A DNA stretch of 64,000 nucleotides from Candidatus Saccharimonadia bacterium (lineage in GTDB: Bacteria; Patescibacteriota; Saccharimonadia; Saccharimonadales; 2-12-FULL-41-12): contig OY970327.1 of assembly GCA_963717365.1 (NCBI GenBank), forward strand, positions 651,599 to 715,598, written 5' to 3'. The position numbers were made by a program, and so were the translations under genes. This document shows, in pieces, positions 2,319 to 62,292 of the stretch. The notes under the pieces were generated by a model. That model was given only the letters and a program-made list of their open reading frames with translations, was not told the DNA's origin and did not search any database. How positions within the stretch are numbered: the stretch's first letter is position 1; each line of letters begins with the position of its first letter.

Positions 2319-2861
2319 TTATGGTGTCGTGGTAAAACCGGAACCTTCCAGGGAGTCAGGCTGCGGAGCGGTGCTGGCAGGAGCCGATTGGGCAGGCGCT
2401 TTTGGATCGCCAAGGTTAATTGGTGCTACTTCTATGATTTTTTTGGTGTCAGGCCGGTATAAGACGGCTTTCTTGGCTTTGGCATACATTACAACCCGGT
2501 CGCCATTCTGGGCTTTGGCAAAGAAGGCTTGGTTGCTGAGTTTGGTTGAGTCAACGACCGTGGCTATAGTAGGGTCTTCATCGGTTGGCAATTCAATTAA
2601 GCGGGAAACTTCCTGTTTAATCTTTTCTGTCTCGGCCTTGGCGGATTCCTGCGGGTTAGACAGGCGCTTCACTTCTTTACGCTGCTCATCATACGCCCGG
2701 TATCCAAAAGCACCTCCGGCGGCAATGAGCAGTACCAGCACTATAATAGCGAGGTAACTTTTTTTAATTTTTACGAAACGGGTTTTGCGATGTTTGTGCG
2801 TTTCTGCGGCAACCGATGCGGTTTCTGCATTCGACGCATTTTTTTTACTTACTTTGGCCAC
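2319..2861 (-). CDS. Single-pass membrane protein, partner of giant gene G1 (paralog of 11157..11843)
   Basis: 180 aa with a GTG start preceded by AGGA. It has a basic N-terminus, a TM helix (YLAIIVLVLLIAAGGAFGY), and a C-terminal domain TIATVVDSTKLSNQAFFAKAQNGDRVVMYAKAKKAVLYRPDTKKIIEVAPINLG. That domain aligns with SLVAVTDPAKLAEKSPVLFKNAQKDDVVLFYLNPDKTGKAVLYRPLTKKLIAIVDGVNLN of the 228-aa protein. Confidence 0.6.
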   Translation of the reverse strand: MAKVSKKNASNAETASVAAETHKHRKTRFVKIKKSYLAIIVLVLLIAAGGAFGYRAYDEQRKEVKRLSNPQESAKAETEKIKQEVSRLIELPTDEDPTIATVVDSTKLSNQAFFAKAQNGDRVVMYAKAKKAVLYRPDTKKIIEVAPINLGDPKAPAQSAPASTAPQPDSLEGSGFTTTP

Positions 2862-2951: not shown

Positions 2952-5900
2952 TTAATGGCTGGCTACCGGAGCCGGTGGGGGCGGATCGGCTGATAAGGCT
3001 ATCCAGGAGAGAGCCATGTCCTCAAGTGCTGGGCTGGCTAGAATAATTTCAAACTCTTCTTCGGTGACATTTTTATAGCTATACTGCGCGAATTTACCAT
3101 CGCCGAGGGTTAGTGAAATAACCGGCTTAGTTGTCTTTGGCTTGCTGAATTTCACCTTAACGCTCGTTTCGCCGGCTTTTACTACAGCAGTACCGGCGGT
3201 ATCGCTGTTCAGCGTAATTTGCCCCTTAACCGCCACATTGCCGTCAAACTGGGCGTCTTTTTCAAACCGCACCATTTCTTTAAATGTAGCCGGTCCCTTA
3301 ACTTCCAGGGCACCCTGGACGATAAGGTTAAGGTTCACCGTCAGGCCCTGGACGTTGGCGTAGCCCAGCACATTGATCTGGCCGTCAAACTGGACGTCTT
3401 TCTGGAAACGGGCCATTTCTTTAAACGTTGCCGGGCCATTAATTTCAACAGCACCTTGGACGATCAGATCAAGGTTTACGGTTAGTTTTTGAACATTAGT
3501 TTCACCGTTAATAATAGCGTTACCGTTGGCCGTTAAGTTGCCGATGGACAGATTCTCGAGGTCAATTTGCTGGGTATTACCTTGGCTGGCTGGCTGTTGT
3601 TCCAGATTGTTTACCCGTGCTTCCAACGACTCAAAGCGGCCATTGTATTCAAGGCCTTCTATGCGATCCGCCCGGATTGTGCCGGCTGTAATGTCGCCGT
3701 TAACCGTTAATGTGTTTGCGGAAACTGCATTCAGGCTGGCATTGCCTTGAGAATTTAAATGCTTAGCAATCTCACCGACAGCCTTCAAATTATAGAAGCT
3801 GAGTCCTTGGAAGTTAACTTCTTTATAGCCGTCCTCCCGCTGCTTCACTAATTCAGGGAAAATTTGTTCAAGTTCCTGGGCTATGACACCGTACTGAAGT
3901 CCGTGGTCAAGGTTAAGTTCGGGCATCTCTTCAACTTTAAAGTTGAAACTGACAACGTTTACACTGTTTAACTTATCAAGGACAGAGCCTACCGAGGTAA
4001 CGTCTTTCTTAACCCGAGCGTCTGAAATACCGGTGGCATCGTTGCGACAGGTACCGGCCGTTGTGATACCACCGCTAATTCTTACGCCGTTACCGATATA
4101 CTGGCCGGCGGTACATGCGGCGACAGTTACGCCGCTTAATCCAGCCTGCTGGTATACACCGCTGGCAACATTAAGGTTGGCTATGCCGGCTCCGAGGTTG
4201 TCTAAGGTCAATGTGGTGGTGGCAGCATTGTTCAGATCAATAGTTGTAGTTCCTGCGGCGTTACGCTGGAGAGTAGAGTCGGTATCGGATATAACAATCT
4301 TATTGCTTGCGCTATCGAGGGTAAGGTCTCCACTGCCGCCGCTAGCTAGCGTGAGACCAGTTGTACCAGTAATATTTGCCCCTACACCAGTAATAGATCC
4401 TGTTTCTGTAATATTGCCGCTGTTATTGTCGATACCCCCTGTAATATTTGCACCTCCGGCTAAAATGGTTAACCCAGATCCTATAATTGCTGTGCCGGAG
4501 GAGGAGGCGCAGCCTGAATCCGAAGTCTCTATACACAAACCTCCGCCCGTTATGTGAAGTCTTGAATCAGGGGCGCTTGTGCCAATGCCAACGCTGCCGT
4601 TAGCCAAAGCCGTAATTATGTCAGTGCCTGATCCGGTGCCGGTAGAAATATTTCCCCGTGTATCGGTAGAGATACTAAATGACCCGGCATTATCGAAGAA
4701 GAAGCCGGATTTTGCCAGTCCTGATTTAAGGGAAGCGATAACGCCGTCAGTACGGTCGATCATAATTGCCGCTCCGGTAGCAGTTTGCTGGACCAGAAGG
4801 TTGCCGTTAATAGCTACGCTTTCGCCGAATTGTACGGCCGTACCATCCAGGTCTGTGATTGCGCCAGCAGTGGTAATTTGGAGACCGGTAGTGCTTGAGC
4901 CCAATAATACCTGGTCATTAAGTACCAGACTGCCATCAATATCGAGCAGCGAACCATCGATAGCTACCTGAAGACCGGTAGCCGCCGAGCCTATATCTGT
5001 TATGTCGTTAAGCACGAGGTTGCCGGTTGGATCAAAAATGGCTCCATCGATGCTAAATGCGCCAGTTATAGTTAAGCCGCCAGTTCCCTGGATAAGGCCG
5101 CTTCCAGCCGTCACTCCGTTGCTGGATACAAGTCCGCTGGCATTTACCTGGAACTGGCTGGTTGAACCTACTGAGAAGAGACCGTCCGGTGTAAGGTCAC
5201 CGCCGACTCCCACATTGCCGCCTAGAGGGTTAAGAACCAAGTCGCGGCCGCCGCCCGATCCAAAGATATCATAAGCACCAATTTCAAAACGGCTGACCGT
5301 ATCACTGGTGCTGACCGAACGGAAATATCCATAGGCATTAAGTGTAGCATCCGTACCCATAAGGTTATATCCGGTGGTATATGTTCCAAATGTGCCATTG
5401 ATAGTACTGTTTCCAGTGATAGAGGCGCTTCCCGACGTGACCACCAGCCCTGTGCCAAACGTTCCTTGACCCTCCACATTCAAGTTTGCCAGCCCTGCCC
5501 CGCTGTTATTTATAGTGAACGCGGTGTCGCTGGCATTAGCCATGTTAAACGTAAGGCCGCTGGTTGTGGCGATGGTGCTTGCACCAAGGTTAACCAATCC
5601 AGAGCCGCTTGAGATTGTTAAGTTATTGGCACCGGTTGTAGATAAGGTTAAGGCACCGGCGTTAGTAACCAGCGGCGTGGTAACGCTGGTATCAAAGACC
5701 GGTGCTTCAGAGATGGTAATGCTGCCGCAGCTGCCGCCGCTGCCAAGGGTAATGACCGTGCCGCCGCCGGTGAGGTCGCCGGAGCCGGCGGCGCAGGTAA
5801 GCTGGGTATTGCCCTGGACTGCCGTGTTGGCGGCTGCGCCGTAGGTAACGCTCAGGCCAGGAGTACTGCCCTCGCCGGAGTTGGTACCGGTAATGGAAAG

Positions 5901-8900
5901 GCCAACCATTGTTCCCAGGTTCTGGACGTAGTCGCCGACCGTTTCGGCGCCCAGGTCAACGGCGTTGTTCTGGACGTCGTTGACGCTTAGTCCGGCCGTG
6001 AACGAGCCGGAGACGTCGCCGGCGGCCGGGCTTTCGCCGACGTTGACGTAGGCGGCGTCGAGTCCGCCGGCGGCGCCGAAGTTAGCCGTTGTCAGCACCG
6101 TTCCGCTAGCACCGTCGAAGGTGTAGGTGGCGGCTGCGCCGCTCGGAGTATTCATGACTATGGTAGCGTCGTTGGTGCCCTTTTCGAAGAACAGCTGGCC
6201 GTTCTCCAGGATACGCAGCTTTTCGCTGCCGGCCGTCGAGAAGACGATGTCGTCGGCGCCGGCCGAGGCGGCGGCTTGCAGATCCAATAGCCCGCCGGCG
6301 TTCTTAAACAGCGGGCTGGTAACGCTGGTATCAAAGACCGGTGCTTCAGAGATGGTAATGCTGCCGCAGCTGCCGCCGCTGCCAAGGGTAATGACCGTGC
6401 CGCCGCCGGTGAGGTCGCCGGAGCCGGCGGCGCAGGTAAGCTGGGTATTGCCCTGGACTGCCGTGTTGGCGGCTGCGCCGTAGGTAACGCTCAGGCCAGG
6501 AGTACTGCCCTCGCCGGAGTTGGTACCGGTAATGGAAAGGCCAACCATTGTTCCCAGGTTCTGGACGTAGTCGCCGACCGTTTCGGCGCCCAGGTCAACG
6601 GCGTTGTTCTGGACGTCGTTGACGCTTAGTCCGGCCGTGAACGAGCCGGAGACGTCGCCGGCGGCCGGGCTTTCGCCGACGTTGACGTAGGCGGCGTCGA
6701 GTCCGCCGGCGGCGCCGAAGTTAGCCGTTGTCAGCACCGTTCCGCTAGCACCGTCGAAGGTGTAGGTGGCGGCTGCGCCGCTCGGAGTATTCATGACTAT
6801 GGTAGCGTCGTTGGTGCCCTTTTCGAAGAACAGCTGGCCGTTCTCCAGGATACGCAGCTTTTCGCTGCCGGCCGTCGAGAAGACGATGTCGTCGGCGCCG
6901 GCCGAGGCGGCGGCTTGCAGATCCAATAGCCCGCCGGCGTTCTTAAACAGCGGGCTGGTAACGCTGGTATCAAAGACCGGTGCTTCAGAGATGGTAATGC
7001 TGCCGCAGCTGCCGCCGCTGCCAAGGGTAATGACCGTGCCGCCGCCGGTGAGGTCGCCGGAGCCGGCGGCGCAGGTAAGCTGGGTATTGCCCTGGACTGC
7101 CGTGTTGGCGGCTGCGCCGTAGGTAACGCTCAGGCCAGGAGTACTGCCCTCGCCGGAGTTGGTACCGGTAATGGAAAGGCCAACCATTGTTCCCAGGTTC
7201 TGGACGTAGTCGCCGACCGTTTCGGCGCCCAGGTCAACGGCGTTGTTCTGGACGTCGTTGACGCTTAGTCCGGCCGTGAACGAGCCGGAGACGTCGCCGG
7301 CGGCCGGGCTTTCGCCGACGTTGACGTAGGCGGCGTCGAGTCCGCCGGCGGCGCCGAAGTTAGCCGTTGTCAGCACCGTTCCGCTAGCACCGTCGAAGGT
7401 GTAGGTGGCGGCTGCGCCGCTCGGAGTATTCATGACTATGGTAGCGTCGTTGGTGCCCTTTTCGAAGAACAGCTGGCCGTTCTCCAGGATACGCAGCTTT
7501 TCGCTGCCGGCCGTCGAGAAGACGATGTCGTCGGCGCCGGCCGAGGCGGCGGCTTGCAGATCCAATAGCCCGCCGGCGTTCTTAAACAGCGGGCTGGTAA
7601 CGCTGGTATCAAAGACCGGTGCTTCAGAGATGGTAATGCTGCCGCAGCTGCCGCCGCTGCCAAGGGTAATGACCGTGCCGCCGCCGGTGAGGTCGCCGGA
7701 GCCGGCGGCGCAGGTAAGCTGGGTATTGCCCTGGACTGCCGTGTTGGCGGCTGCGCCGTAGGTAACGCTCAGGCCAGGAGTACTGCCCTCGCCGGAGTTG
7801 GTACCGGTAATGGAAAGGCCAACCATTGTTCCCAGGTTCTGGACGTAGTCGCCGACCGTTTCGGCGCCCAGGTCAACGGCGTTGTTCTGGACGTCGTTGA
7901 CGCTTAGTCCGGCCGTGAACGAGCCGGAGACGTCGCCGGCGGCCGGGCTTTCGCCGACGTTGACGTAGGCGGCGTCGAGTCCGCCGGCGGCGCCGAAGTT
8001 AGCCGTTGTCAGCACCGTTCCGCTAGCACCGTCGAAGGTGTAGGTGGCGGCTGCGCCGCTCGGAGTATTCATGACTATGGTAGCGTCGTTGGTGCCCTTT
8101 TCGAAGAACAGCTGGCCGTTCTCCAGGATACGCAGCTTTTCGCTGCCGGCCGTCGAGAAGACGATGTCGTCGGCGCCGGCCGAGGCGGCGGCTTGCAGCG
8201 CCAATAGCCCGCCGGCGTTCTTAAACAGCGGGCTGGTAACGCTGGTATCAAAGACCGGTGCTTCAGAGATGGTAATGCTGCCGCAGCTGCCGCCGCTGCC
8301 AAGGGTAATGACCGTGCCGCCGCCGGTGAGGTCGCCGGAGCCGGCGGCGCAGGTAAGCTGGGTATTGCCCTGGACTGCCGTGTTGGCGGCCGAGCCGTAG
8401 GTAACGCTAAGTCCCGGAGTACTGCCCTCGCCGGAGTTGGTACCGGTAATGGAAAGGCCAACCATTGTTCCCAGGTTCTGGACGTAGTCGCCGACCGTTT
8501 CGGCGCCCAGGTCAACGGCGTTGTTCTGGACGTCGTTGACGCTTAGTCCGGCCGTGAACGAGCCGGAGACGTCGCCGGCGGCCGGGCTTTCGCCGACGTT
8601 GACGTAGGCGGCGTCGAGTCCGCCGGCGGCGCCGAAGTTAGCCGTTGTCAGCACCGTTCCGCTAGCACCGTCGAAGGTGTAGGTGGCGGCTGCGCCGCTC
8701 GGAGTATTCATGACTATGGTAGCGTCGTTGGTGCCCTTTTCGAAGAACAGCTGGCCGTTCTCCAGGATACGCAGCTTTTCGCTGCCGGCCGTCGAGAAGA
8801 CGATGTCGTCGGCGCCGGCCGAGGCGGCGGCTTGCAGCGCCAATAGCCCGCCGGCGTTCTTAAACAGCGGGCTGGTAACGCTGGTATCAAAGACCGGTGC

Positions 8901-10862
8901 TTCAGAGATGGTAATGCTGCCGCAGCTGCCGCCGCTGCCAAGGGTAATGACCGTGCCGCCGCCGGTGAGGTCGCCGGAGCCGGCGGCGCAGGTAAGCTGG
9001 GTATTGCCCTGGACTGCCGTGTTGGCGGCCGAGCCGTAGGTAACGCTAAGTCCCGGAGTACTGCCCTCGCCGGAGTTGGTACCGGTAATGGAAAGGCCAA
9101 CCATTGTTCCCAGGTTCTGGACGTAGTCGCCGACCGTTTCGGCGCCCAGGTCAACGGCGTTGTTCTGGACGTCGTTGACGCTTAGTCCGGCCGTGAACGA
9201 GCCGGAGACGTCGCCGGCGGCCGGGCTTTCGCCGACGTTGACGTAGGCGGCGTCGAGTCCGCCGGCGGCGCCGAAGTTAGCCGTTGTCAGCACCGTTCCG
9301 CTAGCACCGTCGAAGGTGTAGGTGGCGGCTGCGCCGCTCGGAGTATTCATGACTATGGTAGCGTCGTTGGTGCCCTTTTCGAAGAACAGCTGGCCGTTCT
9401 CCAGGATACGCAGCTTTTCGCTGCCGGCCGTCGAGAAGACGATGTCGTCGGCGCCGGCCGAGGCGGCGGCTTGCAGCGCCAATAGCCCGCCGGCGTTCTT
9501 AAACAGCGGGCTGGTAACGCTGGTATCAAAGACCGGTGCTTCAGAGATGGTAATGCTGCCGCAGCTGCCGCCGCTGCCAAGGGTAATGACCGTGCCGCCG
9601 CCGGTGAGGTCGCCGGAGCCGGCGGCGCAGGTAAGCTGGGTATTGCCCTGGACTGCCGTGTTGGCGGCCGAGCCGTAGGTAACGCTAAGTCCCGGAGTAC
9701 TGCCCTCGCCGGAGTTGGTACCGGTAATGGAAAGGCCAACCATTGTTCCCAGGTTCTGGACGTAGTCGCCGACCGTTTCGGCGCCCAGGTCAACGGCGTT
9801 GTTCTGGACGTCGTTGACGCTTAGTCCGGCCGTGAACGAGCCGGAGACGTCGCCGGCGGCCGGGCTTTCGCCGACGTTGACGTAGGCGGCGTCAAGAGTA
9901 GATGCATAGTTACTGAGAGTCAGAACACCGTTGCCAAGCCTGATGCGGCTGACGCCGCTGCCCTCGTTGGTTACGATAAATTCACTGTCAGAGCCGGTAG
10001 GCGGCCCAAATTCTATTATGTCTGCCGCTATTGTGGGTGAGCCGTCACTTTCCCGCACCCCGATTGAGGAGCCGCTGCTTGACGTACATTGCCACTCTTT
10101 AGCAGTTGCGTTCCATTTGAGTGATTGCCCGTCGCTGCAGCCCCCCAGCAAACGCAGACCATCGGCACTAATCTCCAGGCCAGAATTGTTGCTTGTCGTA
10201 GCAGTGGTGTTTGTTGTGCTCACATCCACGCAATCCGGTGAGCCTTGGATACAAAGCGTACCATCTTGATCGGGCAAATTGATATTACGGTCTGCCGTTA
10301 AAGCTAAGAAGTCTAAAATACCGGTATTGGCACCGGTGGTTTTGTTTAGAATTTCCGATTGTTTGGCCTGAAAGGCATAAGGCACAGCCGTCAGCTTTAT
10401 CCGCGGCGTCATTTCGCCGTCCCAAACCGGGGTACCGCTGCCCCCAATATTCATCGTCAGCCAGTGGTCCTGATCCCAATCTATTGTCGGTGGAAAACCG
10501 CTTACGTCGCCCAAATTAGCTGATAGGTAACCATTGACTACCCTAACCTTGCTTCCCCCTGTCCTAGTCTCCGTCCATTCGCTTGTTCCGCCGGTACTAG
10601 CGGAGTAGAGGTTAAATTCAATATTGTAGAAGCCGTCCGGTACGACGTTGCCGGCATTGGAAAGCAGGCGCGCCTGGAAGTTGAGATTGCTGGAAGTAGC
10701 CGCATACACGGGGGCAGGCGCGCCCATGCGCGTATATGAAATAACAGCAACAGAGGTCAGAATTACAAAATATACAAAAACACGCAGCAACCGCGTGACA
10801 GGGGAAATTCTAGAACTGAATGCCGATTTGCTAAATCGACACGGATATATCCGTTTTAACAT
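2952..10862 (-). CDS. Giant surface fibre protein G1 (2636 aa): signal/anchor, conserved N-domain, 213-aa tandem repeats, S74-like chaperone domain, C-terminal module
   Basis: Uninterrupted 7.9-kb ORF starting at ATG 10862. The N-terminal hydrophobic segment VFVYFVILTSVAVISY is followed by APAPVYA|ATSS. The ectodomain is rich in T/G/A/N/S/V. It has 6.6 copies of a 213-aa unit. SDARVKKD...GVIAQELEQIFPELV sits near the C-terminus. Confidence 0.85.
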   Translation of the reverse strand: MLKRIYPCRFSKSAFSSRISPVTRLLRVFVYFVILTSVAVISYTRMGAPAPVYAATSSNLNFQARLLSNAGNVVPDGFYNIEFNLYSASTGGTSEWTETRTGGSKVRVVNGYLSANLGDVSGFPPTIDWDQDHWLTMNIGGSGTPVWDGEMTPRIKLTAVPYAFQAKQSEILNKTTGANTGILDFLALTADRNINLPDQDGTLCIQGSPDCVDVSTTNTTATTSNNSGLEISADGLRLLGGCSDGQSLKWNATAKEWQCTSSSGSSIGVRESDGSPTIAADIIEFGPPTGSDSEFIVTNEGSGVSRIRLGNGVLTLSNYASTLDAAYVNVGESPAAGDVSGSFTAGLSVNDVQNNAVDLGAETVGDYVQNLGTMVGLSITGTNSGEGSTPGLSVTYGSAANTAVQGNTQLTCAAGSGDLTGGGTVITLGSGGSCGSITISEAPVFDTSVTSPLFKNAGGLLALQAAASAGADDIVFSTAGSEKLRILENGQLFFEKGTNDATIVMNTPSGAAATYTFDGASGTVLTTANFGAAGGLDAAYVNVGESPAAGDVSGSFTAGLSVNDVQNNAVDLGAETVGDYVQNLGTMVGLSITGTNSGEGSTPGLSVTYGSAANTAVQGNTQLTCAAGSGDLTGGGTVITLGSGGSCGSITISEAPVFDTSVTSPLFKNAGGLLALQAAASAGADDIVFSTAGSEKLRILENGQLFFEKGTNDATIVMNTPSGAAATYTFDGASGTVLTTANFGAAGGLDAAYVNVGESPAAGDVSGSFTAGLSVNDVQNNAVDLGAETVGDYVQNLGTMVGLSITGTNSGEGSTPGLSVTYGSAANTAVQGNTQLTCAAGSGDLTGGGTVITLGSGGSCGSITISEAPVFDTSVTSPLFKNAGGLLALQAAASAGADDIVFSTAGSEKLRILENGQLFFEKGTNDATIVMNTPSGAAATYTFDGASGTVLTTANFGAAGGLDAAYVNVGESPAAGDVSGSFTAGLSVNDVQNNAVDLGAETVGDYVQNLGTMVGLSITGTNSGEGSTPGLSVTYGAAANTAVQGNTQLTCAAGSGDLTGGGTVITLGSGGSCGSITISEAPVFDTSVTSPLFKNAGGLLDLQAAASAGADDIVFSTAGSEKLRILENGQLFFEKGTNDATIVMNTPSGAAATYTFDGASGTVLTTANFGAAGGLDAAYVNVGESPAAGDVSGSFTAGLSVNDVQNNAVDLGAETVGDYVQNLGTMVGLSITGTNSGEGSTPGLSVTYGAAANTAVQGNTQLTCAAGSGDLTGGGTVITLGSGGSCGSITISEAPVFDTSVTSPLFKNAGGLLDLQAAASAGADDIVFSTAGSEKLRILENGQLFFEKGTNDATIVMNTPSGAAATYTFDGASGTVLTTANFGAAGGLDAAYVNVGESPAAGDVSGSFTAGLSVNDVQNNAVDLGAETVGDYVQNLGTMVGLSITGTNSGEGSTPGLSVTYGAAANTAVQGNTQLTCAAGSGDLTGGGTVITLGSGGSCGSITISEAPVFDTSVTSPLFKNAGGLLDLQAAASAGADDIVFSTAGSEKLRILENGQLFFEKGTNDATIVMNTPSGAAATYTFDGASGTVLTTANFGAAGGLDAAYVNVGESPAAGDVSGSFTAGLSVNDVQNNAVDLGAETVGDYVQNLGTMVGLSITGTNSGEGSTPGLSVTYGAAANTAVQGNTQLTCAAGSGDLTGGGTVITLGSGGSCGSITISEAPVFDTSVTTPLVTNAGALTLSTTGANNLTISSGSGLVNLGASTIATTSGLTFNMANASDTAFTINNSGAGLANLNVEGQGTFGTGLVVTSGSASITGNSTINGTFGTYTTGYNLMGTDATLNAYGYFRSVSTSDTVSRFEIGAYDIFGSGGGRDLVLNPLGGNVGVGGDLTPDGLFSVGSTSQFQVNASGLVSSNGVTAGSGLIQGTGGLTITGAFSIDGAIFDPTGNLVLNDITDIGSAATGLQVAIDGSLLDIDGSLVLNDQVLLGSSTTGLQITTAGAITDLDGTAVQFGESVAINGNLLVQQTATGAAIMIDRTDGVIASLKSGLAKSGFFFDNAGSFSISTDTRGNISTGTGSGTDIITALANGSVGIGTSAPDSRLHITGGGLCIETSDSGCASSSGTAIIGSGLTILAGGANITGGIDNNSGNITETGSITGVGANITGTTGLTLASGGSGDLTLDSASNKIVISDTDSTLQRNAAGTTTIDLNNAATTTLTLDNLGAGIANLNVASGVYQQAGLSGVTVAACTAGQYIGNGVRISGGITTAGTCRNDATGISDARVKKDVTSVGSVLDKLNSVNVVSFNFKVEEMPELNLDHGLQYGVIAQELEQIFPELVKQREDGYKEVNFQGLSFYNLKAVGEIAKHLNSQGNASLNAVSANTLTVNGDITAGTIRADRIEGLEYNGRFESLEARVNNLEQQPASQGNTQQIDLENLSIGNLTANGNAIINGETNVQKLTVNLDLIVQGAVEINGPATFKEMARFQKDVQFDGQINVLGYANVQGLTVNLNLIVQGALEVKGPATFKEMVRFEKDAQFDGNVAVKGQITLNSDTAGTAVVKAGETSVKVKFSKPKTTKPVISLTLGDGKFAQYSYKNVTEEEFEIILASPALEDMALSWIALSADPPPPAPVASH
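3745..4040 (-). other. Peptidase S74-like intramolecular chaperone / autoproteolysis domain of G1
   Basis: Sequence GISDARVKKDVTSVGSVLDKLNSVNVVSFNFKVEE...LQYGVIAQELEQIFPELVKQREDGYKEVNFQGLSFYNLKAVGEIAKHL. The Ser-Asp codons are at complement 4020-4025, with Lys at +5. This pattern matches the endosialidase / tail-spike C-terminal chaperone family. Confidence 0.65.
5679..9892 (-). repeat. 639-bp (213-aa) in-frame tandem repeat, about 6.6 copies, in two subfamilies of identical copies
   Basis: Antisense shadow ORFs recur at 6127, 6766, 7405, 8044, 8683 and 9322, a period of 639. The three copies spanning 8044-9892 are identical to each other. The copies spanning 5679-8043 are also identical to each other. 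The two sets differ at about 7 nt per unit, for example gcagcgcc vs gcagatcc (LLALQ vs LLDLQ) and YGSAAN vs YGAAAN. Confidence 0.9.
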
Positions 10863-10927
10863 GTGTTTTTGTTTGTTTTTGGTTTTTGTTTTTGTTTTTA
10901 CTATATATTTAGTAAATAACTAGTCAC

Positions 10928-10975
10928 AGTATGACTCTTTTCAAACAGGGGTGCAATAGTAATCGAGTACAAAAT
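10928..10975 (-). promoter_or_regulatory. Promoter-like block upstream of G1 (-10 CATACT, -35 TTGCAC, upstream ATTTTGTACTC element)
   Basis: The minus strand reads ATTTTGTACTCgattactaTTGCAC-N17-CATACT, with -10 at complement 10928-10933 and -35 at complement 10951-10956. The whole block is about 85% identical to 44911..44959 upstream of G3. It is followed by a leader of about 60 nt, AAAAACAAAAACAAAAACCAAAAACAAACAAAAACAC-ATG, with no Shine-Dalgarno. Confidence 0.45.
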
Positions 10976-11129
10976 ATATGCAGGTATTGTATGGAAATTC
11001 CGCTTTGCACATAAATAAAATGACGTATTTATAGCAACAATATTTTCCATATTTATCTGTTAACTAGCAGTATTGAACACATTTAATACTATAGACACTG
11101 CTGGAACTTTAATTTAATTGCAACAATAC

Positions 11130-11138
11130 TTATCCACA
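11130..11138 (+). promoter_or_regulatory. Perfect DnaA-box 9-mer TTATCCACA (followed by G) in the G2-operon/G1 intergenic region
   Basis: Read directly as ctTATCCACAgccggg with the preceding t, at 11130-11138. It lies 19 nt downstream of the stop of 11157..11843 and about 270 nt upstream of the G1 ATG. TTGAACACA lies at 11073-11081. Confidence 0.4.
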
Positions 11139-11156
11139 GCCGGGAAAAGATTTTTA

Positions 11157-11843
11157 TTATCGAGCTGGTCTGGCTGGCATCGCGTTTGTGGCAGGTTCGG
11201 TACTAGATGTACCAGGGTTCAGGTTAACCCCATCGACAATAGCAATAAGTTTTTTAGTTAATGGCCGGTATAAAACAGCCTTTCCTGTTTTATCGGGGTT
11301 AAGATAGAACAGGACAACATCATCTTTTTGGGCATTCTTGAATAATACCGGACTCTTCTCGGCAAGCTTTGCCGGGTCGGTGACGGCTACTAACGAGGGT
11401 GTCTGGTCGGCCGGGACATCAGTATAGGAGCGTATTTCCTCGTGGTACTTAACCGCTTCGGCCTCGGCATCTGCTGTGGCGGCTTGCGATGCTTTTGGAT
11501 CAGCAGCAGTATTTGAGCCATCGTCATCGCGGCTTACTAACAGTATAACGGCTATAAAGGCTGCCAGCAGGAGCAACCCGGCTATAACCAGCATCTTAGG
11601 TGATACCACGATACCGGGCGCTGGCGGAGGGGATAGTGGCGCCTGTCTTGGTAAAAACAGAGGCGGATGAGACGTTTCGGCAGGTTTCCCGGGAGGCTTG
11701 GTTTCTTCTGCCGATTCTTCCGGGGTGTCATCTAAGGAGGGCTGGGTCTCAATTGGTTTTGCCTCATCTGTAATGGCGGCGTCTGATGACACTGGCTCTG
11801 TTGGCTCCTCGGCTTTTGGAACTTTTACACGCACGCGCGCCAC
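11157..11843 (-). CDS. Single-pass membrane protein, partner of giant gene G2 (paralog of 2319..2861)
   Basis: 228 aa with a GTG start preceded by GGAGAGGAG. It has an acidic/Pro-rich N-terminus, a TM helix (MLVIAGLLLLAAFIAVILLV), and a C-terminal domain shared with the 180-aa protein (KAVLYRP.TKK.I motif). Confidence 0.6.
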   Translation of the reverse strand: MARVRVKVPKAEEPTEPVSSDAAITDEAKPIETQPSLDDTPEESAEETKPPGKPAETSHPPLFLPRQAPLSPPPAPGIVVSPKMLVIAGLLLLAAFIAVILLVSRDDDGSNTAADPKASQAATADAEAEAVKYHEEIRSYTDVPADQTPSLVAVTDPAKLAEKSPVLFKNAQKDDVVLFYLNPDKTGKAVLYRPLTKKLIAIVDGVNLNPGTSSTEPATNAMPARPAR

Positions 11844-11917: not shown

Positions 11918-14900
11918 TTACTGTTGGATAAAGGTATTTGGATTTGTAACGCTGAGGGCGGTCCATGAGAACTGGACGTTCTCTGTGGCCGGCTGGCTGA
12001 GCATAATATCAAATCCGGTTGACGTTACGTTGCGGTAGGCATACTGGGCAAAGCCGCCCTCACCGAGAGTAAGGGAGATAACCGGCTGCTGGCTGAATGG
12101 CTTTGTGAAGCTGACATGGACACTCTGCTGCCCGGCATTGATTGCCGCGTAGCCGCCGGTGTTGCTATTGAACCTGGCCTCGCCGTTAAAGCTGGTAAGG
12201 CCGTTGAGCTGCACGTCGCCATTAAAAGTTGCCAGCTGCTCAAACAGGGCCGTACCCTGGAAAGTTGAGCTGCCCTTCACTACCAATGCGCCTTCGGTAA
12301 ACATATCTAGGGTTATATTCAGGTTGCCAACTGTCAGGTTTTCCAGGTCAATTTGCTGGCTTGGACCGGTGTTGCTTGCCTGACTTTGCTCAAGACTATT
12401 TACCCGGGTTTCCAGAGCTGATAACTTAACGTCCAAGCCGTCTATCTGCTCAAATTGTTCCATACTGATATCGCCGACTTTTTGGTTAAGCTCAATTAGG
12501 CCTTTTAAGGTGTATATATTAAGGGCGTCGTATTTTACCCGGAAATAGCCGTCTTGGCCCTGAGCAACTAGTTCAGGAAAGATCTCAGCTATCTCCTGGG
12601 CAATAACACCAGTGCCGCGGTCGCAGCTTAAATCAAGAACCGTATAGTCGGGATCGTCACATTTAAACTCAAACGTAACAGTATTAATGCTCTGGAGTTT
12701 ATCTAAAATTCCATCTTCAATGCTGGCGACATTTTCTTTCAGGCGGGCGTCAGAAAGTCCGGCATCATCAGCTTCGCAGGTACCAGCTGTAATGATACCG
12801 CCTGTTGAGGTGGCGTTACCCATAAATTGGTTAGCGGCACAATCCAGAGTGATGCCATTTACGCCATCATTCTGATATACGCCCGTCCCTGTTACATTAA
12901 AGTTGCCACTGGTAGATATGGTACTGCTGGCAGCTATGGTGGTAGCGCCGGAAACAGCGCCGGCGCTGGTTATACCACCGGCATTATTGTTTATGCCGCC
13001 GGTTATATTTGCCCCCCCGCCGGTAACTGTCAGTCCGGTAATGTTCTGCAAGGCACCGGCGTTAGTTAATCGTGTCACTCCGGCAGTTTGAAGGCTACCT
13101 TCGCTGATATTAAAGTTAGCAACTCCCAAGCCGCTGTTGGTTAGTATAAAAGTAGTAGTTAACAGATCATTCAGATCGGTTGTGAAAGAACCGGCCCCAG
13201 TCCTTTGGACTGAAGTATCAGAACTATCAATAACGAGAGTGTTACTGGCACTGTTTAACGTAAGGTTTGCGCTGCCTCCTGAGCTAACCGTCAGTGCGCC
13301 AGTTCCGGTAATACTCGCGATATTCTGCAAAGCACCGGTACTGGTTAGCCGTACGGTACCATTAGTGGCGACCGAGTTAAAGTTTATATTGCCGTCTCCG
13401 TCCAACAGGTCTGCCATTTCTGTTGTGGCGGAAAGTCCATAGAATAAGAGGGACTGGTTTCTTACTTGTAAAAATCCGTTGGCACCCGTAGAAACTAGTT
13501 CTGGAAATATTAACGCAAGCTGCTGGGCTATTACTCCCGTGCGATCATCGCAGGTTAAATCAAGAGCTGCGTACAACACGTCCAGGCAAAGATAGTTGTA
13601 ATCAACAACGTTTACATTCTTTATCTGGCTGAGCATGTTTGTTTTGGACACCACATTTGTTTTAAGGGTGCCGTCTGAAATACCGGTGTCATCAGGTTCG
13701 CAGGTTCCTGCCGTGATTATACCGCCGCTGACGGTTTGGTTGCCCAGGAATTCATTAGCTGCACAGTCTGGACTGATACCGTTTACTCCATCATTTTGAT
13801 AAACGCCAGTACCCGTTACATTGAAGTTTCCACTGGTAGAGATGGTATTGTTGGCAGCAATAGTAGTAGCGCCGGCAATTGCGCCCGTATTAGTGATACC
13901 GCCGGTGTTATTGTTAATACCGCCGCTGATACTGGCACCGCCGCTAGCGACTGTCAGCCCCGTAATACCGGTAAGGGTCCCTGTTATAGTACTATTCCCT
14001 GTTACAGTTATGCCGCCAGCTGTGACTGCCAAGCTGCCACCGAATGAGCCTCCGCCTTCGACGCTTAAACTAGCGGTTTGTGTTCCGTCGGAATTTGTAA
14101 CAGATAAGGTAGTGTTGGCACCGGCGTTTAGCAAATCGATAATTGTAGTACCGGCAGCACTGCGCCGCAAAGTGCCTGAACCGATATTAACCACGCCGTT
14201 GCCACTCGTTAAAGTAAGTGCCCCTGTACCTTGGGTTTGTACGAGTAGGTTTTGGTTATTGGCAGCTTGGATAGTTGTTGCGCCGGCTCCGGCGAAAGTC
14301 AGCGCGGTACCGGTAAATGTATTGGTGTTTATAGTACCGCCAACCGTTATATTATTTGTTACGTTAATCGCTACCCCGGCTGCTGAAAAAGTATTGGCTA
14401 AAGTAAAGTTATTTGCCTGGTTTTCATATGCTATGTTGGTGAGCGTTCCGGCAGTATTAATATCCACGCCGTTAAGCTGGAAGGCACCGGCAGTAGTATT
14501 AATGTTGCCTGACGCGGTAACACTAGTAAAACTTGGCGTAGCCGACAATGAAACGTTGCCACAAGTGCCGCCAGTCCCCAGGGTTATGGTATTGCCACCG
14601 CCGCTTAGGTTGCCAGTTCCAGATGCACAAGTGATCTGGGTATTGCCTTCTACCGCCGTGCCTGCACCGGAACCGTACTGAACATTTAGAGTAGCGGTAC
14701 CGCCGGCTCCTAGGGTAAGTGTTCCGCCGCCGCCAAGGCCTGTGCCAGCAGCTACAGTAACTGCTGTATTGCCCTGGACAGCGGTGTTGGCGGCTGAGCC
14801 GTAGAGCACGCTGATGGTTGGAGTACTGCCTTCGCCGGTGTTGCCGGTGGTAGATAGGCCGGTTAGGGTGCCGAGGGTGGCTATGTAGTTGCCTACAGTG

Positions 14901-17900
14901 TCAGTACCTAGGTCAACACTGTTGTTCTGTACACTGTTTACGAGGAAGCCAGCCGTGAATGAACCGGAGATGTCACCGGCAGCCGGTGCCTGCCCTTCGT
15001 TTACATAGGTAGCATCAAGCGTAGTGGTGTAGTTGGCGGTAGTCAGGACGGTGCCGGTGGCGCCTGAGAAGGTGTAGGTGGCAGCGGCGCCGGGGGCGGC
15101 TACCGCAAAGGTAACGTCGTTAGTGCCCTTTTCGAATTTCAGGTCGCCGTTTTCAAGGATACGCACTGCTTCGCCGCCGGCCGTATTAAAGATGATGTCG
15201 TCGGCACCGGCGGTGGCGGTTGTACCAACAGTAAGTATTCCGGCGCTTTGTACTATTGGTGTAGTAACGCTGGTGCCAAAGCTAACGGCAGCATTGGTAG
15301 TTATGTTACCGCAAGAACCAGCTGTACCTAAGGCAAAGCTGTTGCCGCCACCGGTGAGGTTACCAGTGCCGGATGCACAGGTAATCTGGGTATTGCCCTG
15401 GACAGCGGTGTTGGCGGCAGAGCCGTACAGTACTGAGATAGTTGGCGTGCTGCCTTCTCCGGTGTTGCCGGTGGTGCTGAGGCCGGTTAGGGTGCCAAGG
15501 ACGGATATGTAGTTGCCGGTTGTTTGAGTCCCTAAGGTAACGGCGTCAGCGTCGATCTCGCCATTAGAAATTGAGGTACCGAGGGTTGCTACCAGCGATC
15601 CGCTGGAAATACCCAGCCCTGTACCTGTTAAATCAGTGAAGGCGTCGCCGTTAAGCGTAAATGTGTCGCCGGTCTCAATGGTTAGGCCACCGTTGGCGGT
15701 AATCAGGCCGGCCGCGGCCACCGTGCCGGTGAAGCTGACAGCGTTGCCAATAGTCTGGCCGTTAATAGTGCCACTGGTCACGTTGCCATTGGTTGCGACC
15801 TGGAAGGCATCAGCCGTACCGGCCGTCAGCGTACCGGATACATCTAGGTTGCCGGTAACGTTAGTGTTATCTTGCAGCTCTATGGTTGAACCGCTGTTAA
15901 GTGTTATCAGGTCAGCACTGGTAATGGCCAGGTCATTGCCCACTCCTGTTGCTGAGATTGTTAAGTTCCCAGCATTAGTAACGATTGGCGTCGTAACACT
16001 GGTGCCAAAACTAACCGCCGCATTAGTTGTAAGGTTACCGCAAGATCCGGCTGTACCAAGGGCAAAGCTGTTACCCCCACCGCTGAGGTTACCAGTGCCG
16101 GATGCGCAGGTGATCTGGGTGTTGCCTTGAACGGCAGTGTTGGCGGTTGAACCGTAAAGGACGCTGATGGTTGGAGTTGAGCCCTCTCCAGTGTTGCCGG
16201 TAGTGCTTAGGCCGGTTAATGAGCCTAAGGTAGCTATGTAGTTGCCTACGGTATCTGTCCCTAAGTCTACGCTGTTGTTTTGGACGCTATTAACGAGGAA
16301 ACCAGCGGTGAATGAACCGCTGATGTCACCGGCTGATGGATTTTCGCCAGTGTTAACGTACGTTCCGTCCAGAGTAGCTGTGTAATTAGCGGTGGTGAGA
16401 ATCGTACCAGTAGCGCCTGAGAACGTATAGTTAGCGGGAGCGCCAGACGGGGTAGCAATAATAAAGGTGGCGTCGTTAGTACCACGCTCAAACCGTAAAT
16501 CACCGTTTTCCAGTATGCGGAAAGTTTCGCTTCCGGCGTTGCTAAAGACAATGTCATCAACACCAGCCGTAGCGGTCGATGAGATAGCAAGCGATCCAGC
16601 GTTCGTTAGTGTTGGCGTGGTCACAGAAGTTGCAAAGCTCACAGCTGCGTTAGTTGTAATATTGCCGCATGATCCGGCTGAACCAAGGGCGAAACTGTTA
16701 CCGCCACCTGAAAGGTTGCCCGTCCCACTGGCGCAGGTGATCTGGGTATTGCCTTGGACGGCGGTATTGGCGCCTGAGCCATAAAGAACGGCTATGGTTG
16801 GAGTGCTGCCTTCGCCGGTGTTGCCGGTGCTAGATAAGCCAGTCAGCGTGCCTAGGGTAGCAATGTAGTTTCCAACCGTATCTGTGCCCAGATCAACTGA
16901 GTTATTCTGGACGCTGTTAACCAAGAAGCCGGCAGTAAATGAACCGGAAATATCACCGGCTGTTGGGTTTTCACCAGTATTAACATAGGTACCGTCAAGC
17001 GTAGCCGTATAATTAGCGGTGGTGAGAATCGTACCGGTAGCGCCGCTAAAGGTATACGTAGCAGCCGCGCCGGGAGTTACTACTGCAAAAGTCACGTCGT
17101 TGGTACCTTTTTCAAACCTAAGGTCGCCGTTTTCCAAAATACGCACTACTTCACTGCCAGCTGTGTTAAAGATTATGTCGTCGGCGCCTCCGGTAGCGGT
17201 GGTACCGATACTCATAGTGCCTGCATTCTGAATAGTTGGCGTAGTTACAGAGGTTGAGAAACTGACTGCCGCGTTAGTAGTAAGGTTGCTGCAGCTACCG
17301 CCCGTACCAAGCGTGAGCGTATTGCCGCCCCCACTCAGATTGCCAGTTCCAGATGCGCAGGTAATTTGGGTATTACCTTGGACGGCGGTATTGGCTGCTG
17401 AACCGTATAGCACACTGATGGTTGGAGTACTGCCTTCTCCAGTGTTGCCGGTGGTAGATAAGCCAGTTAAGCTGCCCAAGGTTGCTATGTAGTTGCCGAC
17501 TGTATCTGTTCCAAGATCAACGCTGTTATTCTGGACGCTGTTAACTAAGAAGCCAGCAGTAAATGAGCCGCTAATGTCACCGGTGGCAGGGCTTTCACCA
17601 GTGTTTACGTAGCCGGTGTCCAGGTTGGTGGCGTAGTTTCCGGTGGTTAATATGGTGCCGCTGACACCGCTAAAGGTGTAGGTAGCAGCCGCGCCGGGAG
17701 CCGCAAAGGCTAAGGTTATATCATTGGTGCCCTTCTCGACTCTGACATCGCCGTTTTCTAAGAACCGCATCACTTCGTTGCCAGCCGTGCTCAAGACAAT
17801 GTCGTCAGCACCGGCCGTAGCGGTTGTAGTCAGATTTAGAGCCCCGGCGGTGGTTATTGTTGGCGTAGTAACTGAGGTACCAAAGCTAACAGCCGCATTA

Positions 17901-24808: not shown

Positions 24809-24878
24809 TTTGTTAGATTTTTGAACTACTTTTGTGTTCGTTATCTGTTTCTTATGTCTGTTAAGAAAGCTTATGCAT

Positions 24879-24931
24879 AGTTTACCTGGTAGCATTACAC
24901 TATGCAAGCCTATTGTGCACATTTTGTACTC
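24879..24931 (-). promoter_or_regulatory. Promoter-like block upstream of G2 (-10 TAAACT, -35 TTGCAT, inverted GAGTACAAAAT element)
   Basis: The minus strand reads GAGTACAAAATgtgcacaataggcTTGCAT-N17-TAAACT, with -10 at complement 24879-24884 and -35 at complement 24902-24907. The leader ...CGAACACAAAAGTAGTTCAAAAATCTAACAAA-ATG has no Shine-Dalgarno. Confidence 0.4.
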
Positions 24932-25224
24932 ACAGTACTAATTAATACTTTTACTGTTTATAGGGGTCGGGTATGTGGGCAGCGTGTATCACCGAGGAAT
25001 ATGACTGGAAAATACTGATTATTAATAAGGAGATTTATGCATGGAAGACAGTTTAGTTTTTTGTATTGAGGAATTTTATTAAATTAAGATTGAATTGAAT
25101 AATAATTAATTTATTTACGTGCTGCCAAAAATGTAATTTATCGTTAAAAATAAGCAAATTGGCTATAAATATTTGTATTTTATGTGTTCAAAAGTATATA
25201 TTATACAACATATTTTTTTCGGAC

Positions 25225-25233
25225 TTTTCCACA
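25225..25233 (+). promoter_or_regulatory. DnaA-box-like 9-mer TTTTCCACA (fits TTWTNCACA) upstream of G2
   Basis: Read directly as ggacTTTTCCACAatt. TGTGTTCAA lies at 25183-25191. It sits in an AT-rich intergenic region between the 5S terminator and G2. Confidence 0.3.
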
Positions 25234-25311: not shown

Positions 25312-25347
25312 CTGAAAAGCAAAGAACCGCCCATAAAGGCGGTTCTT
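25312..25347 (-). terminator. Rho-independent terminator of the 23S-5S operon
   Basis: On the minus strand AAGAACCGCC (25347-25338) pairs with GGCGGTTCTT (25331-25322) across a 6-nt loop, followed by TGCTTTTC. Confidence 0.75.
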
Positions 25348-25356
25348 ATACATAAA

Positions 25357-25469
25357 ACGGCACCGTGCTATCTTCCCAGGGTTAAAACCCAAGTATTGTA
25401 ACCGCTGCGAGGCTTAACTGCTGTGTTCGGGATGGGAACAGGTGTGACCCTCACGCTATGGGCACCGAT
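25357..25469 (-). rRNA. rrf: 5S rRNA
   Basis: The reverse complement reads AUCGGUGCCCAUAGCGUGAGGGUCACACCUGUUCCCAUCCCGAACACAGCAGUUAAGCCUCGCAGCGGUUACAAUACUUGGGUUUUAACCCUGGGAAGAUAGCACGGUGCCG. It has the conserved CCGAAC and GUUAAGC motifs. Helix I (CGGUGCC / GGUGCCG) closes with two G-U pairs. Confidence 0.9.
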
Positions 25470-25520
25470 GGTGCTCTGGTGTGTAGCCCTGCCGCACTAC
25501 GTGCAGCATTACTATTATTA

Positions 25521-44910: not shown

Positions 44911-44959
44911 AGTATGGAGCATCCTGAATAAGGGGTCAATGGTTAATTGAGTACAAAAT
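44911..44959 (-). promoter_or_regulatory. Promoter-like block upstream of G3 (-10 CATACT, -35 TTGACC, upstream ATTTTGTACTC element)
   Basis: The minus strand reads ATTTTGTACTCaattaaccaTTGACC-N17-CATACT, with -10 at complement 44911-44916 and -35 at complement 44934-44939. It is followed by an A/C-rich leader of about 105 nt ending CCAAACCAAACCAAAACCAAACCAAA-ATG. Confidence 0.45.
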
Positions 44960-45134
44960 TTATGTATCAATATAGATGTGTAAATTACAATGATATTGAA
45001 TTTATATCGTAGTTTATAATACTACGATAATTGTCTCTAACCACTGTATCTGCGAAAAATACTGAATAATATAGGTGTTCAAACACCTTAAATTCGAAGT
45101 TATTTATACAACATTCCGTCTAGTAAACGTCCAG

Positions 45135-45143
45135 TTATCCACA
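45135..45143 (+). promoter_or_regulatory. Perfect DnaA-box 9-mer TTATCCACA (followed by G) upstream of G3
   Basis: Read directly as ccagTTATCCACAggaaaa. The palindrome AGGTGTTCAAACACCT lies at 45073-45088. Confidence 0.4.
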
Positions 45144-45309
45144 GGAAAATACTGTTTTAAGTTACCAGAATATGAATTATGCAGTTAAAAAAGTCAGTAA
45201 GTACTGTTAATCTAGCTTTTTGTTTGGAGTTAGGTCTAGCAAGTTTAGTCACGTGGACTTTGTGCCACCGGCCATCCAGTAAGACAGCCAAATACCTTGA
45301 TCTTGAAAT

Positions 45310-62089: not shown

Positions 62090-62195
62090 TTTGATTTGTT
62101 TTATTTTTGTTTTAGCTATTTTATATATAACTAAACTACACTATACTCCACTGTCAACACCTTACCTAGTACTTTGAACACAAAATTTACTTAGG

Positions 62196-62204
62196 TTATC
62201 CACA
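62196..62204 (+). promoter_or_regulatory. Perfect DnaA-box 9-mer TTATCCACA (followed by G) upstream of G4
   Basis: Read directly as taggTTATCCACAggttaa, 107 nt upstream of the G4 ATG. TTGAACACAAAAT lies at 62174-62186. A TTGACA hexamer is at complement 62152-62157. Confidence 0.4.
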
Positions 62205-62292
62205 GGTTAAATTTAGTAAGTACTTGTTATTATTGTATTTATAACAATATATTTTACCAAAAAACATCGTTAATATTAAATTTTGTGTTCGT

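What the first reader, a model, noticed from the sequence alone, without database searches (positions are those of the whole stretch)
11130..11138. Perfect DnaA-box 9-mers (TTATCCACA, always followed by G) sit upstream of G1, G3 and G4, with a TTTTCCACA variant upstream of G2
TTATCCACAG occurs at 11130, 45135 and 62196. All three are on the + strand (antisense to the giants) and all are in the intergenic region upstream of a giant gene, at 268, 337 and 107 nt from the ATGs. Upstream of G2 there is TTTTCCACA (25225), which still fits the relaxed DnaA consensus TTWTNCACA.

Each box is accompanied 20-60 bp away by a TTGAACAC / GTGTTCAA element: 11073-11081, 62174-62182, 25183-25191 (inverted) and the palindrome AGGTGTTCAAACACCT at 45073-45088.

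A specific 9-mer is expected far less than once per strand in 64 kb by chance, so three copies with identical context are unlikely to be coincidental. Candidate explanations are DnaA acting as a transcription factor on the giant-gene regulon, a different regulator with a DnaA-box-like site (for example the G2 HTH), or remnants of a duplicated upstream cassette. I did not notice other copies, but I could not scan the coding sequence exhaustively.
Basis: seen in the sequence. Interest (0 to 1): 0.62.

Follow-up and report, generated by a model that had tools for sequence, protein, structure and literature searches.

The report
DnaA-box-like operator upstream of giant genes
A 10-12 base motif identical to the strongest binding site of the replication initiator DnaA sits in front of all four giant surface-protein genes in this Saccharibacteria window and in front of their relatives in 74 of 78 other species, so it is a real, phylum-wide control element, though the protein that reads it has not been identified.

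Summary
TTATCCACAG occurs exactly three times in the window (11130, 45135, 62196) and TTTTCCACA once (25225). All four lie upstream of a giant gene, and none occurs elsewhere.

The window is Saccharibacteria (TM7). In 80 loci from other species that encode relatives of the G1/G3 N-terminus, TGTGGA[T/A]AA occurs 76 times in 69.5 kb of upstream DNA (1.5 expected) and 3 times in 531 kb elsewhere. It is present in 74 of 78 usable loci, 71:5 in the gene-sense orientation. The only common variant is the one seen before G2.

The extended consensus (C)CTGTGGATAA(C) equals E. coli oriC boxes R1 and R4.

The element is not a promoter hexamer. It lies either 9-27 nt upstream of the -35 in either orientation, or, in 40 loci, 186-196 nt upstream of a conserved sigma-70-type promoter, at the distal edge of a fixed-length module.

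I found no consensus RNA structure or small ORF, and terminators adjoin it in only 22 of 74 cases.

Best reading: a protein-binding operator of a giant-gene regulon, with DnaA as the only known candidate binder (untested, because no Saccharibacteria oriC could be fetched). The G2 HTH idea is unlikely, duplication remnants are rejected, and the TTGAACAC companion is species-specific.

The parts
11130..11139 (-). Box upstream of G1. It reads CTGTGGATAA on the gene (-) strand and lies 268 nt before the ATG and 173 nt before the -35.
25225..25233 (-). Variant box upstream of G2. It reads TGTGGAAAA on the gene strand and lies between the 5S rRNA terminator (25322-25347) and a promoter-like site.
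   Evidence: The same variant is the main alternative form in other species.
45135..45144 (-). Box upstream of G3 (CTGTGGATAA), 337 nt before the ATG and 195 nt before the -35.
62196..62205 (-). Box upstream of G4 (CTGTGGATAA), 107 nt before the ATG and about 50 nt before a TATAGT -10-like hexamer.
10928..10956 (-). G1 sigma-70-type promoter, TTGCAC-N17-CATACT. It is homologous to the promoter conserved in other species.
44911..44939 (-). G3 sigma-70-type promoter, TTGACC-N17-CATACT.
25099..25128 (-). G2 promoter-like site, TTGGCA-N18-TATTAT, 96 nt downstream of the box. Tentative.
62140..62145 (-). G4 -10-like hexamer TATAGT. It aligns with the G1 -10 region. The -35 is unclear.
45096..45112 (-). 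G3 copy of site H1 (GTTGTATAAATAACTTC; consensus GTTGT-N7-ACAAC), 23-39 nt after the box. This is a conserved position in the long module.
45005..45029 (-). G3 copy of site H2 (CGTAGT-N7-ACTACG palindrome), the second conserved site of the module.
45073..45088 (.). Palindrome AGGTGTTTGAACACCT. Other copies of TTGAACAC are at 11073-11080, 25184-25191 and 62174-62181.

Best explanation
The element (R-S-Y)TGTGGA[T/A]AA(not T) is a binding site for a single DNA-binding protein. It acts as an operator shared by the promoters of the giant surface-protein genes of Saccharibacteria, that is, a giant-gene regulon. The most likely binder is DnaA. One DnaA molecule would recognise this R1/R4-type high-affinity box through its domain IV and tie transcription of these very long, costly genes to the replication and growth state of the cell.

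In some loci the box sits at about -45 to -70, next to the -35. That is a position from which a bound protein can touch RNA polymerase. In most loci it forms the distal edge, at about -230, of a fixed-length upstream module. That module also holds two conserved GTTGT-N7-ACAAC sites, so action there would need looping or a larger nucleoprotein assembly.

Shown here: the element is real, specific to giant-gene upstream regions, conserved across the phylum, biased in orientation, held at fixed distances, and identical to the canonical DnaA box. Inferred: that a protein binds it, that this protein is DnaA, and whether it activates or represses.
For: Window: 4 of 4 TTWTCCACA copies lie upstream of the 4 giants and none elsewhere.

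Comparative:
- 74 of 78 usable loci from other Saccharibacteria species carry it upstream. There are 76 hits against 1.5 expected, and 3 against 7.8 expected elsewhere. Orientation is 71:5.
- A G4-family homologue at 36% identity also has it. G4 is unrelated to G1/G3 at the N-terminus.
- The loci fall in different genomic contexts, about 43 downstream of rplU and about 30 not.

Sharp edges: information content drops to background beyond -3 and +2.

DnaA likeness:
- The element matches TTATCCACA at 9 of 9 positions.
- The only tolerated change is A/T at box position 3 (55 T: 19 A in the gene-sense reading), as in the canonical TTWTNCACA.
- The flanks give CTGTGGATAAC, which is exactly E. coli oriC R1 and R4.
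- A single asymmetric 9-12-mer suits a monomeric binder.

Positions typical of a transcription-factor site: the box lies 9-27 nt upstream of a TTGACn-N17-TAAyCT promoter, in either orientation (L014, L020, L052, L038, L071, L059). In 40 loci it lies 186-196 nt upstream of a conserved TTGnnn-N17-(G/C)ATA(A/C)T promoter, while the distance from the -10 to the ATG varies from 1 to 235 nt.

Patescibacteria encode DnaA (PMC12102498).
Against: - There is no binding evidence of any kind.
- As far as I know, known DnaA-regulated promoters usually carry the box(es) close to or over the promoter, often in clusters. Here there is a single box, mostly about 190 nt upstream of the -35.
- Extra weak boxes nearby are only marginally enriched (26 against 18 +/- 4).
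- Box position 5 is invariant C here, whereas DnaA tolerates any base there.
- A regulon limited to giant genes is not an obvious DnaA regulon.
- No paper in the searched library links DnaA boxes and Patescibacteria.
Confidence: 0.45

Rival explanations
1. It is the same kind of element, a protein-binding operator of the giant-gene regulon, but it is read by a Saccharibacteria-specific DNA-binding protein that is not DnaA. The identity with the DnaA box would then be coincidental or convergent.
For: The regulon appears restricted to giant surface-protein genes, with only 3 copies in 531 kb of other DNA. The box is embedded in a lineage-specific module with other conserved sites at fixed positions: GTTGT-N7-ACAAC twice, AGGTGT and AACAG. 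The invariant C at box position 5 and the conserved flanks exceed what DnaA is known to require.
Against: No candidate protein is known. No regulator gene is consistently adjacent; the upstream neighbours are ileS, rplU or other giants. A single asymmetric site with no repeat or palindrome is unusual for the common dimeric regulators. An 11 of 11 match to CTGTGGATAAC of E. coli R1/R4 is unlikely by coincidence.
Confidence: 0.4
2. A protein bound at the box, DnaA or another, works as a boundary or roadblock. It would stop read-through from the upstream gene (rplU, an rRNA operon or another giant) from entering the giant-gene control region, rather than regulating initiation.
For: The box always marks the 5' edge of the conserved region. 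It lies just after the upstream gene: 18 nt after the small ORF before G1, and a median of 40 nt after rplU. In 16 loci a terminator hairpin follows it directly, and in 6 a terminator precedes it. The strong orientation bias of 71:5 fits an orientation-dependent block. To my knowledge a DnaA-box block of this kind has been described for the E. coli asnC transcript.
Against: 52 of 74 loci have no recognisable terminator near the box. The fixed 186-196 nt spacing to the promoter is not needed for a roadblock. In the short architecture the box is found in both orientations right next to the -35.
Confidence: 0.07
3. The element acts in the transcript or in the transcription bubble. It would be an ops/JUMPstart-like recruitment site for a NusG-family antiterminator needed to complete 8-16 kb genes, or another leader-RNA motif.
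For: The genes are very long and encode surface proteins, like the operons controlled by RfaH-type factors (own knowledge). The motif is almost always on the coding strand.
Against: The box lies upstream of the conserved sigma-70-type promoters. In 16 loci a strong terminator separates it from the gene. In L014, L020 and L052 it is inverted. No consensus RNA structure was found, and the window has no Rfam hit there.
Confidence: 0.03
4. The cytoplasmic tandem MerR/HTH_17 domains at the N-terminus of G2 bind the box. G2 would then be a membrane-tethered regulator that controls the giants.
For: G2 carries two HTH_17/MerR domains ahead of a membrane segment and has a variant box upstream of its own gene.
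Against: Only 19 relatives of this N-terminus were found among 5.8 billion proteins. Most are 165-400 aa, several carry an SH3 domain, and one is named by its source as Candidatus Daviesbacteria. The box, in contrast, is present in 74 of 78 species loci. As far as I know, MerR-type domains usually read palindromes. The one metagenome relative fetched has no box upstream.
Confidence: 0.03
5. Chance, or a decaying remnant of duplicated upstream DNA with no function.
For: The within-window excess is modest (3 against 0.45 expected; 1 of 100 shuffles reached 3). G1 and G3 are paralogues whose promoter-proximal regions are still alignable.
Against: There are 76 hits against 1.5 expected in other species. 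The flanks are randomised while the 9-mer is invariant. Homology between the window regions does not extend to the box.
Confidence: 0.01

Closest known systems
High-affinity DnaA boxes (E. coli oriC R1 and R4, consensus TTATCCACA / TTWTNCACA)
   Same: The 9-mer is identical. The flanking bases are also identical (CTGTGGATAAC). The A/T tolerance at box position 3 is the same. It is a single asymmetric site.
   Different: It is not in an origin and not in a cluster. There is one copy per giant-gene control region. Binding by DnaA is untested.
DnaA boxes acting as transcriptional operators (own knowledge: E. coli dnaA, nrdAB, mioC and rpoH promoters; B. subtilis dnaA, sda, ywlC, yydA regions)
   Same: It is a DnaA-type box placed upstream of or beside a sigma-70-type promoter outside oriC. 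The short architecture, 9-27 nt upstream of the -35, resembles these.
   Different: The target genes are giant surface proteins, not replication or nucleotide-metabolism genes. Most copies lie about 190 nt upstream of the -35 at a fixed distance. There is a single box rather than an array.
Distal operators that act by looping (own knowledge: araO2 about 210 bp from araI, lac O3, gal OE/OI)
   Same: It is a strong site far upstream of the promoter, with constrained spacing and further conserved sites in between.
   Different: Spacing here is held to within about +/-5 bp across species, rather than only in helical phase. The binding proteins are unknown.
RfaH ops / JUMPstart elements in leaders of long surface-structure operons (own knowledge)
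   Same: It is a short, conserved, orientation-biased motif in front of very long genes for surface structures.
   Different: ops lies in the transcribed leader. This box lies upstream of the conserved promoters, is sometimes inverted, and is sometimes followed by a terminator.

Membership tests
DnaA box | 9-mer matching TTWTNCACA, ideally TTATCCACA | tested here: met
   There are three exact copies and one TTTTCCACA in the window. In other species 54 loci have the exact form and about 18 the W variant. The flanks equal E. coli R1/R4.
DnaA box | Bound by DnaA domain IV of the same organism | not testable with these tools
   This needs EMSA, DAP-seq or ChIP with Saccharibacteria DnaA.
DnaA box | The same consensus found clustered at the organism's oriC (dnaA/dnaN region) | not tested
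   No dnaA was found in the window or in the 80 loci. No literature on the subject was found.
DnaA box | The organism encodes DnaA | not tested
   Only from the literature: dnaA is reported in Patescibacteria genomes (PMC12102498). It was not checked for this genome.
DnaA-regulated promoter | Box(es) overlapping or close to the promoter | tested here: inconclusive
   Met in the short architecture, 9-27 nt upstream of the -35. Not met in the 40 loci where the box is 186-196 nt upstream. The promoters are predictions only.
ops/JUMPstart-type antitermination element | Located in the transcribed leader, on the non-template strand, in one orientation only | tested here: not met
   The box is upstream of the conserved promoters. 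It is inverted in L014, L020 and L052. A terminator follows it in 16 loci.
Structured leader RNA / small RNA | Conserved secondary structure with covariation | tested here: not met
   RNAalifold predicts no consensus pairs over 41 aligned modules. The two palindrome-like sites show about 56% Watson-Crick pairing and conserved bases rather than compensatory change. There is no Rfam hit.
Sigma-70 promoter hexamer (-35 or -10) | Fixed 16-18 nt spacing to a partner hexamer, with a sequence resembling TTGACA or TATAAT | tested here: not met
   The base after the box varies and there is no partner hexamer at 16-18 nt. Canonical -35 and -10 elements lie further downstream.

The most novel reading that the evidence does not exclude
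Across Saccharibacteria, the replication initiator DnaA directly controls the giant surface-protein genes, the likely host-attachment apparatus of these epibionts. It would do so through one high-affinity box that nucleates a fixed-geometry upstream assembly of about 235 bp. Display of the giant proteins would then be coupled to the replication and division cycle.
Probability: 0.3. Interest if true: 0.85.

Novelty: new variant of a known kind. Interest (0 to 1): 0.68.

Why it matters
I found nothing published on how Patescibacteria (CPR) regulate genes, and their giant surface proteins are prime candidates for host attachment. This element gives a concrete, phylum-wide handle.

- It defines a giant-gene regulon by sequence alone.
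- It nominates a testable regulator. DnaA is one of the few DNA-binding proteins these reduced genomes can be expected to keep.
- It reveals an unusually rigid upstream module of about 235 bp.

If it is not, the box is bait for isolating an unknown regulator. The motif can also be used to find giant-gene starts in fragmented metagenome assemblies.

Tried and rejected
- **RNA structure.** RNAalifold on 41 aligned modules gave no consensus pairs. Explicit pair counts on the two GTTGT-N7-ACAAC sites showed conserved bases, not covariation.
- **Small ORF in the module.** The longest stop-free stretches are mostly 30-49 codons in either strand (20-69 overall) and are not conserved.
- **DnaA filament along the module.** Matches with two or fewer mismatches are only marginally above shuffles (26 against 18 +/- 4).
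- **Terminator association.** Only 22 of 74 loci have an intrinsic terminator within 60 nt.
- **Companion element TTGAACAC.** It is not conserved outside this genome.
- **Adjacent regulator gene.** Clustering of the upstream ORFs gave ileS, rplU and other giants, with no DNA-binding family.
- **G2 family.** The metagenome scan returned one HTH relative without a box, which is uninformative. The homologue search showed the family is small.
- **G4 family.** Only one true homologue was found, but it carries the box.
- **Saccharibacteria oriC.** There is no dnaA signature in the window or the loci. The look-up of encoding contigs returned only a Logan contig without DNA. Literature searches were empty.
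- **First alignment for the locus search.** It was redone with 6 sequences.

Full report
**What is in the window.**
The window carries four very long genes on the - strand: G1 2952-10862, G2 11918-24922, G3 34326-44798 and G4 45602-62089. G1 and G3 share an N-terminal domain, G2 begins with two MerR/HTH_17 domains, and G4 is unrelated at its start. Homologues of the G1 N-terminus are annotated as Candidatus Saccharibacteria / Saccharimonadales, so the organism is a member of Saccharibacteria (TM7, Patescibacteria).

**The observation.**
TTATCCACA occurs exactly three times, at 11130, 45135 and 62196, always on the + strand and always followed by G. Allowing A or T at position 3 adds only 25225 (TTTTCCACA), which gives four copies, one in each intergenic region upstream of a giant and none in coding DNA. 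The count alone is weak evidence (0.45 expected, and 1 of 100 shuffles reached 3). The placement is what is striking. Around the box the four regions share only the 10-mer. G1 and G3 are alignable only from about 30 nt upstream of their -35 into the leader, and G1 and G4 only around the -10 and leader.

**Comparative test.**
- **Loci fetched.** Using an alignment of G1/G3 N-termini and four homologues, I fetched 80 loci from GTDB species-representative genomes, nearly all labelled Saccharibacteria or unclassified.
- **First count.** On the gene strand the exact 9-mer TGTGGATAA is present in 52 loci, once each, 200-650 nt before the protein match.
- **Variant form.** With the conserved NFQAR motif as anchor, 54 loci have the exact box. 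In nearly all the others the best match is TGTGGAAAA, the same variant as upstream of G2.
- **Totals.** TGTGGAWAA/TTWTCCACA occurs 76 times in 69.5 kb of upstream sequence (1.5 expected) and 3 times in the remaining 531 kb (7.8 expected). 74 of the 78 loci with usable upstream DNA have it. 71 copies are in the gene-sense orientation and 5 are inverted.
- **Genomic contexts.** About 43 box-bearing loci lie downstream of ileS-rplU, and about 30 lie elsewhere.
- **G4 family.** The only clear homologue of the unrelated G4 N-terminus (36% identity) has TGTGGAAAA 273 nt upstream of its ATG and a similar downstream layout.

**Anatomy of the element.**
Aligned on the box, information content is high from -3 to +10 and at background beyond. 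The consensus is R-S-Y-TGTGGA-[T 55 / A 19]-AA-(not T)-T. The plurality form CCTGTGGATAAC contains the 11-mer CTGTGGATAAC, which is the sequence of both high-affinity boxes R1 and R4 of E. coli oriC, as I checked in the MG1655 record. The single tolerated substitution is at the position where the canonical DnaA consensus TTWTNCACA (established knowledge) also allows A or T.

**Where it sits relative to promoters.**
The box is not itself a -35 or -10, since there is no partner hexamer at 16-18 nt and the following base varies.
- **Conserved promoter.** A well-conserved sigma-70-type promoter lies nearer the genes: TTGnnn-N17-(G/C)ATA(A/C)T, preceded by an A-tract. In the window it is TTGCAC-N17-CATACT for G1 (10956-10928) and TTGACC-N17-CATACT for G3 (44939-44911).
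- **Long architecture.** Of 56 loci in which the first scan recognised this promoter, most have the -35 about 188-193 nt after the box end (median 191). A slightly broader scan places 40 loci at 186-196 nt, 30 of them rplU-linked and 10 not. The distance from the -10 to the ATG ranges from 1 to 235 nt. G3 has 195 nt and G1 173 nt. Within this module other landmarks keep fixed positions: a GTTGT-N7-ACAAC site 23-39 nt after the box, a second one at about 107-123 nt, and AGGTGT and AACAG motifs in between. In the rplU clade the terminator hairpin of rplU occupies the first 33 nt after the box, so there the box lies between the rplU stop codon and its terminator.
- **Short architecture.** Here the box is 9-27 nt upstream of the -35 of a TTGACn-N17-TAAyCT promoter, in sense orientation (L038, L071, L059) or inverted (L014, L020, L052).
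- **The other two window genes.** G4, with about 50 nt from box to a -10-like TATAGT, and G2, with 96 nt to TTGGCA-N18-TATTAT, are intermediate.

All promoters are predictions, because no TSS data exist.

**What it is not.**
- RNAalifold finds no consensus structure in 41 aligned modules, and the two palindrome-like sites are conserved in sequence rather than covarying.
- There is no conserved small ORF.
- Additional weak DnaA-like boxes are only marginally enriched.
- An intrinsic terminator adjoins the box in only 22 of 74 cases.
- The location upstream of promoters, the occasional inversion and the intervening terminators argue against an ops-like or leader-RNA role.
- The TTGAACAC element is enriched in this window (7 against 1.66 expected) but absent at that position in other species, so it is a species-level feature at best.
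- The G2 HTH has only 19 detectable relatives, mostly short non-giant proteins, so it cannot be the general reader of a near-universal box.
- No regulator gene is consistently adjacent.

**Most likely mechanism.**
The features are a single, sharply bounded, asymmetric, high-information site. It is specific to one class of genes and avoided elsewhere. It lies either beside the -35, in either orientation, or at a fixed long distance within a conserved module. Together these best fit a protein-binding operator that defines a giant-gene regulon. I regard this much as nearly certain (about 0.95).

The identity of the protein is inferred. DnaA is the only known protein with this specificity, its DNA-binding domain and box are conserved across most bacterial phyla (established knowledge), and Patescibacteria encode dnaA (PMC12102498). 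I put DnaA at about 0.45 and an unknown lineage-specific factor at about 0.40. Roadblock or boundary, RNA-level and G2-HTH models share the remainder. The direction of regulation is unknown.

The rigid spacing of about 190 bp suggests looping or a multi-protein assembly with the GTTGT-N7-ACAAC sites. This is inference only.

**Novelty.**
DnaA boxes acting as operators are known. A phylum-wide, single-box signature of giant surface-protein genes in CPR bacteria, embedded in a fixed-length module, is not described in the searchable literature. I class it as a new variant of a known kind.

Noticed in passing
window 25355-29359 and 63289-63660: The rRNA genes are split. tRNA-Ala and tRNA-Ile, the usual 16S-23S spacer tRNAs, lie about 34 kb upstream of 23S-5S on the same strand, with G4, G3 and several ORFs in between. 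The 23S match spans 3538 nt for a 2925-nt model, which implies an insertion of about 600 nt.
   Followed up: no
L001-L080, about 0.1-3.5 kb upstream of the box: Synteny is conserved. ileS (47 loci) is followed by rplU (38 loci), then the box, then a G1-type giant gene. In one clade the box lies between the rplU stop codon and the rplU terminator hairpin.
   Followed up: partly
window 45005-45029, 45096-45112; loci L002-L078 (alignment A3, columns 42-62 and 178-198): Two GTTGT-N7-ACAAC palindrome-like sites lie at fixed positions about 84 bp apart inside the upstream module. They are probably sites for a second, dimeric factor. The sequence is conserved without covariation.
   Followed up: partly
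window 10863-10900, 44799-44850, 62090-62115; most loci just before the ATG: C/A-rich leaders with no obvious Shine-Dalgarno sequence (AAACAAAAACCAAAAAC) directly precede the giant-gene start codons. CAAAAAC, ACAAACA and AAAACCA are 6-fold enriched in leaders.
   Followed up: no
window 24023-24808 (G2 N-terminus): G2 fuses two cytoplasmic MerR/HTH_17 domains to a membrane segment and a giant ectodomain with collagen-like repeats. Its few relatives are short proteins with tandem HTH domains, several of them with an SH3 domain.
   Followed up: partly
window 2952-10862 (G1, aa 2280-2340): G1 has a Peptidase_S74 domain (endosialidase intramolecular chaperone), as found in phage tail-fibre and tailspike proteins.
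   Followed up: no
window 2319-2861 and 11157-11843: Paralogous small membrane proteins are encoded directly downstream of G1 and G2. A relative of the first is also present in L036.
   Followed up: no
window 45144-45601: There is a 458-nt non-coding gap between the G4 stop codon and the G3 box. It contains GTGTGTA-type repeats around 45310-45375. It has no Rfam hit and remains unexplained.
   Followed up: no
L079 5690-5720; L028 3566-3602; L010 3704-3858: Some loci carry two boxes in inverted orientation, for example TGGATAAC-N7-GTTATCCACA in L079. This suggests occasional paired sites.
   Followed up: no
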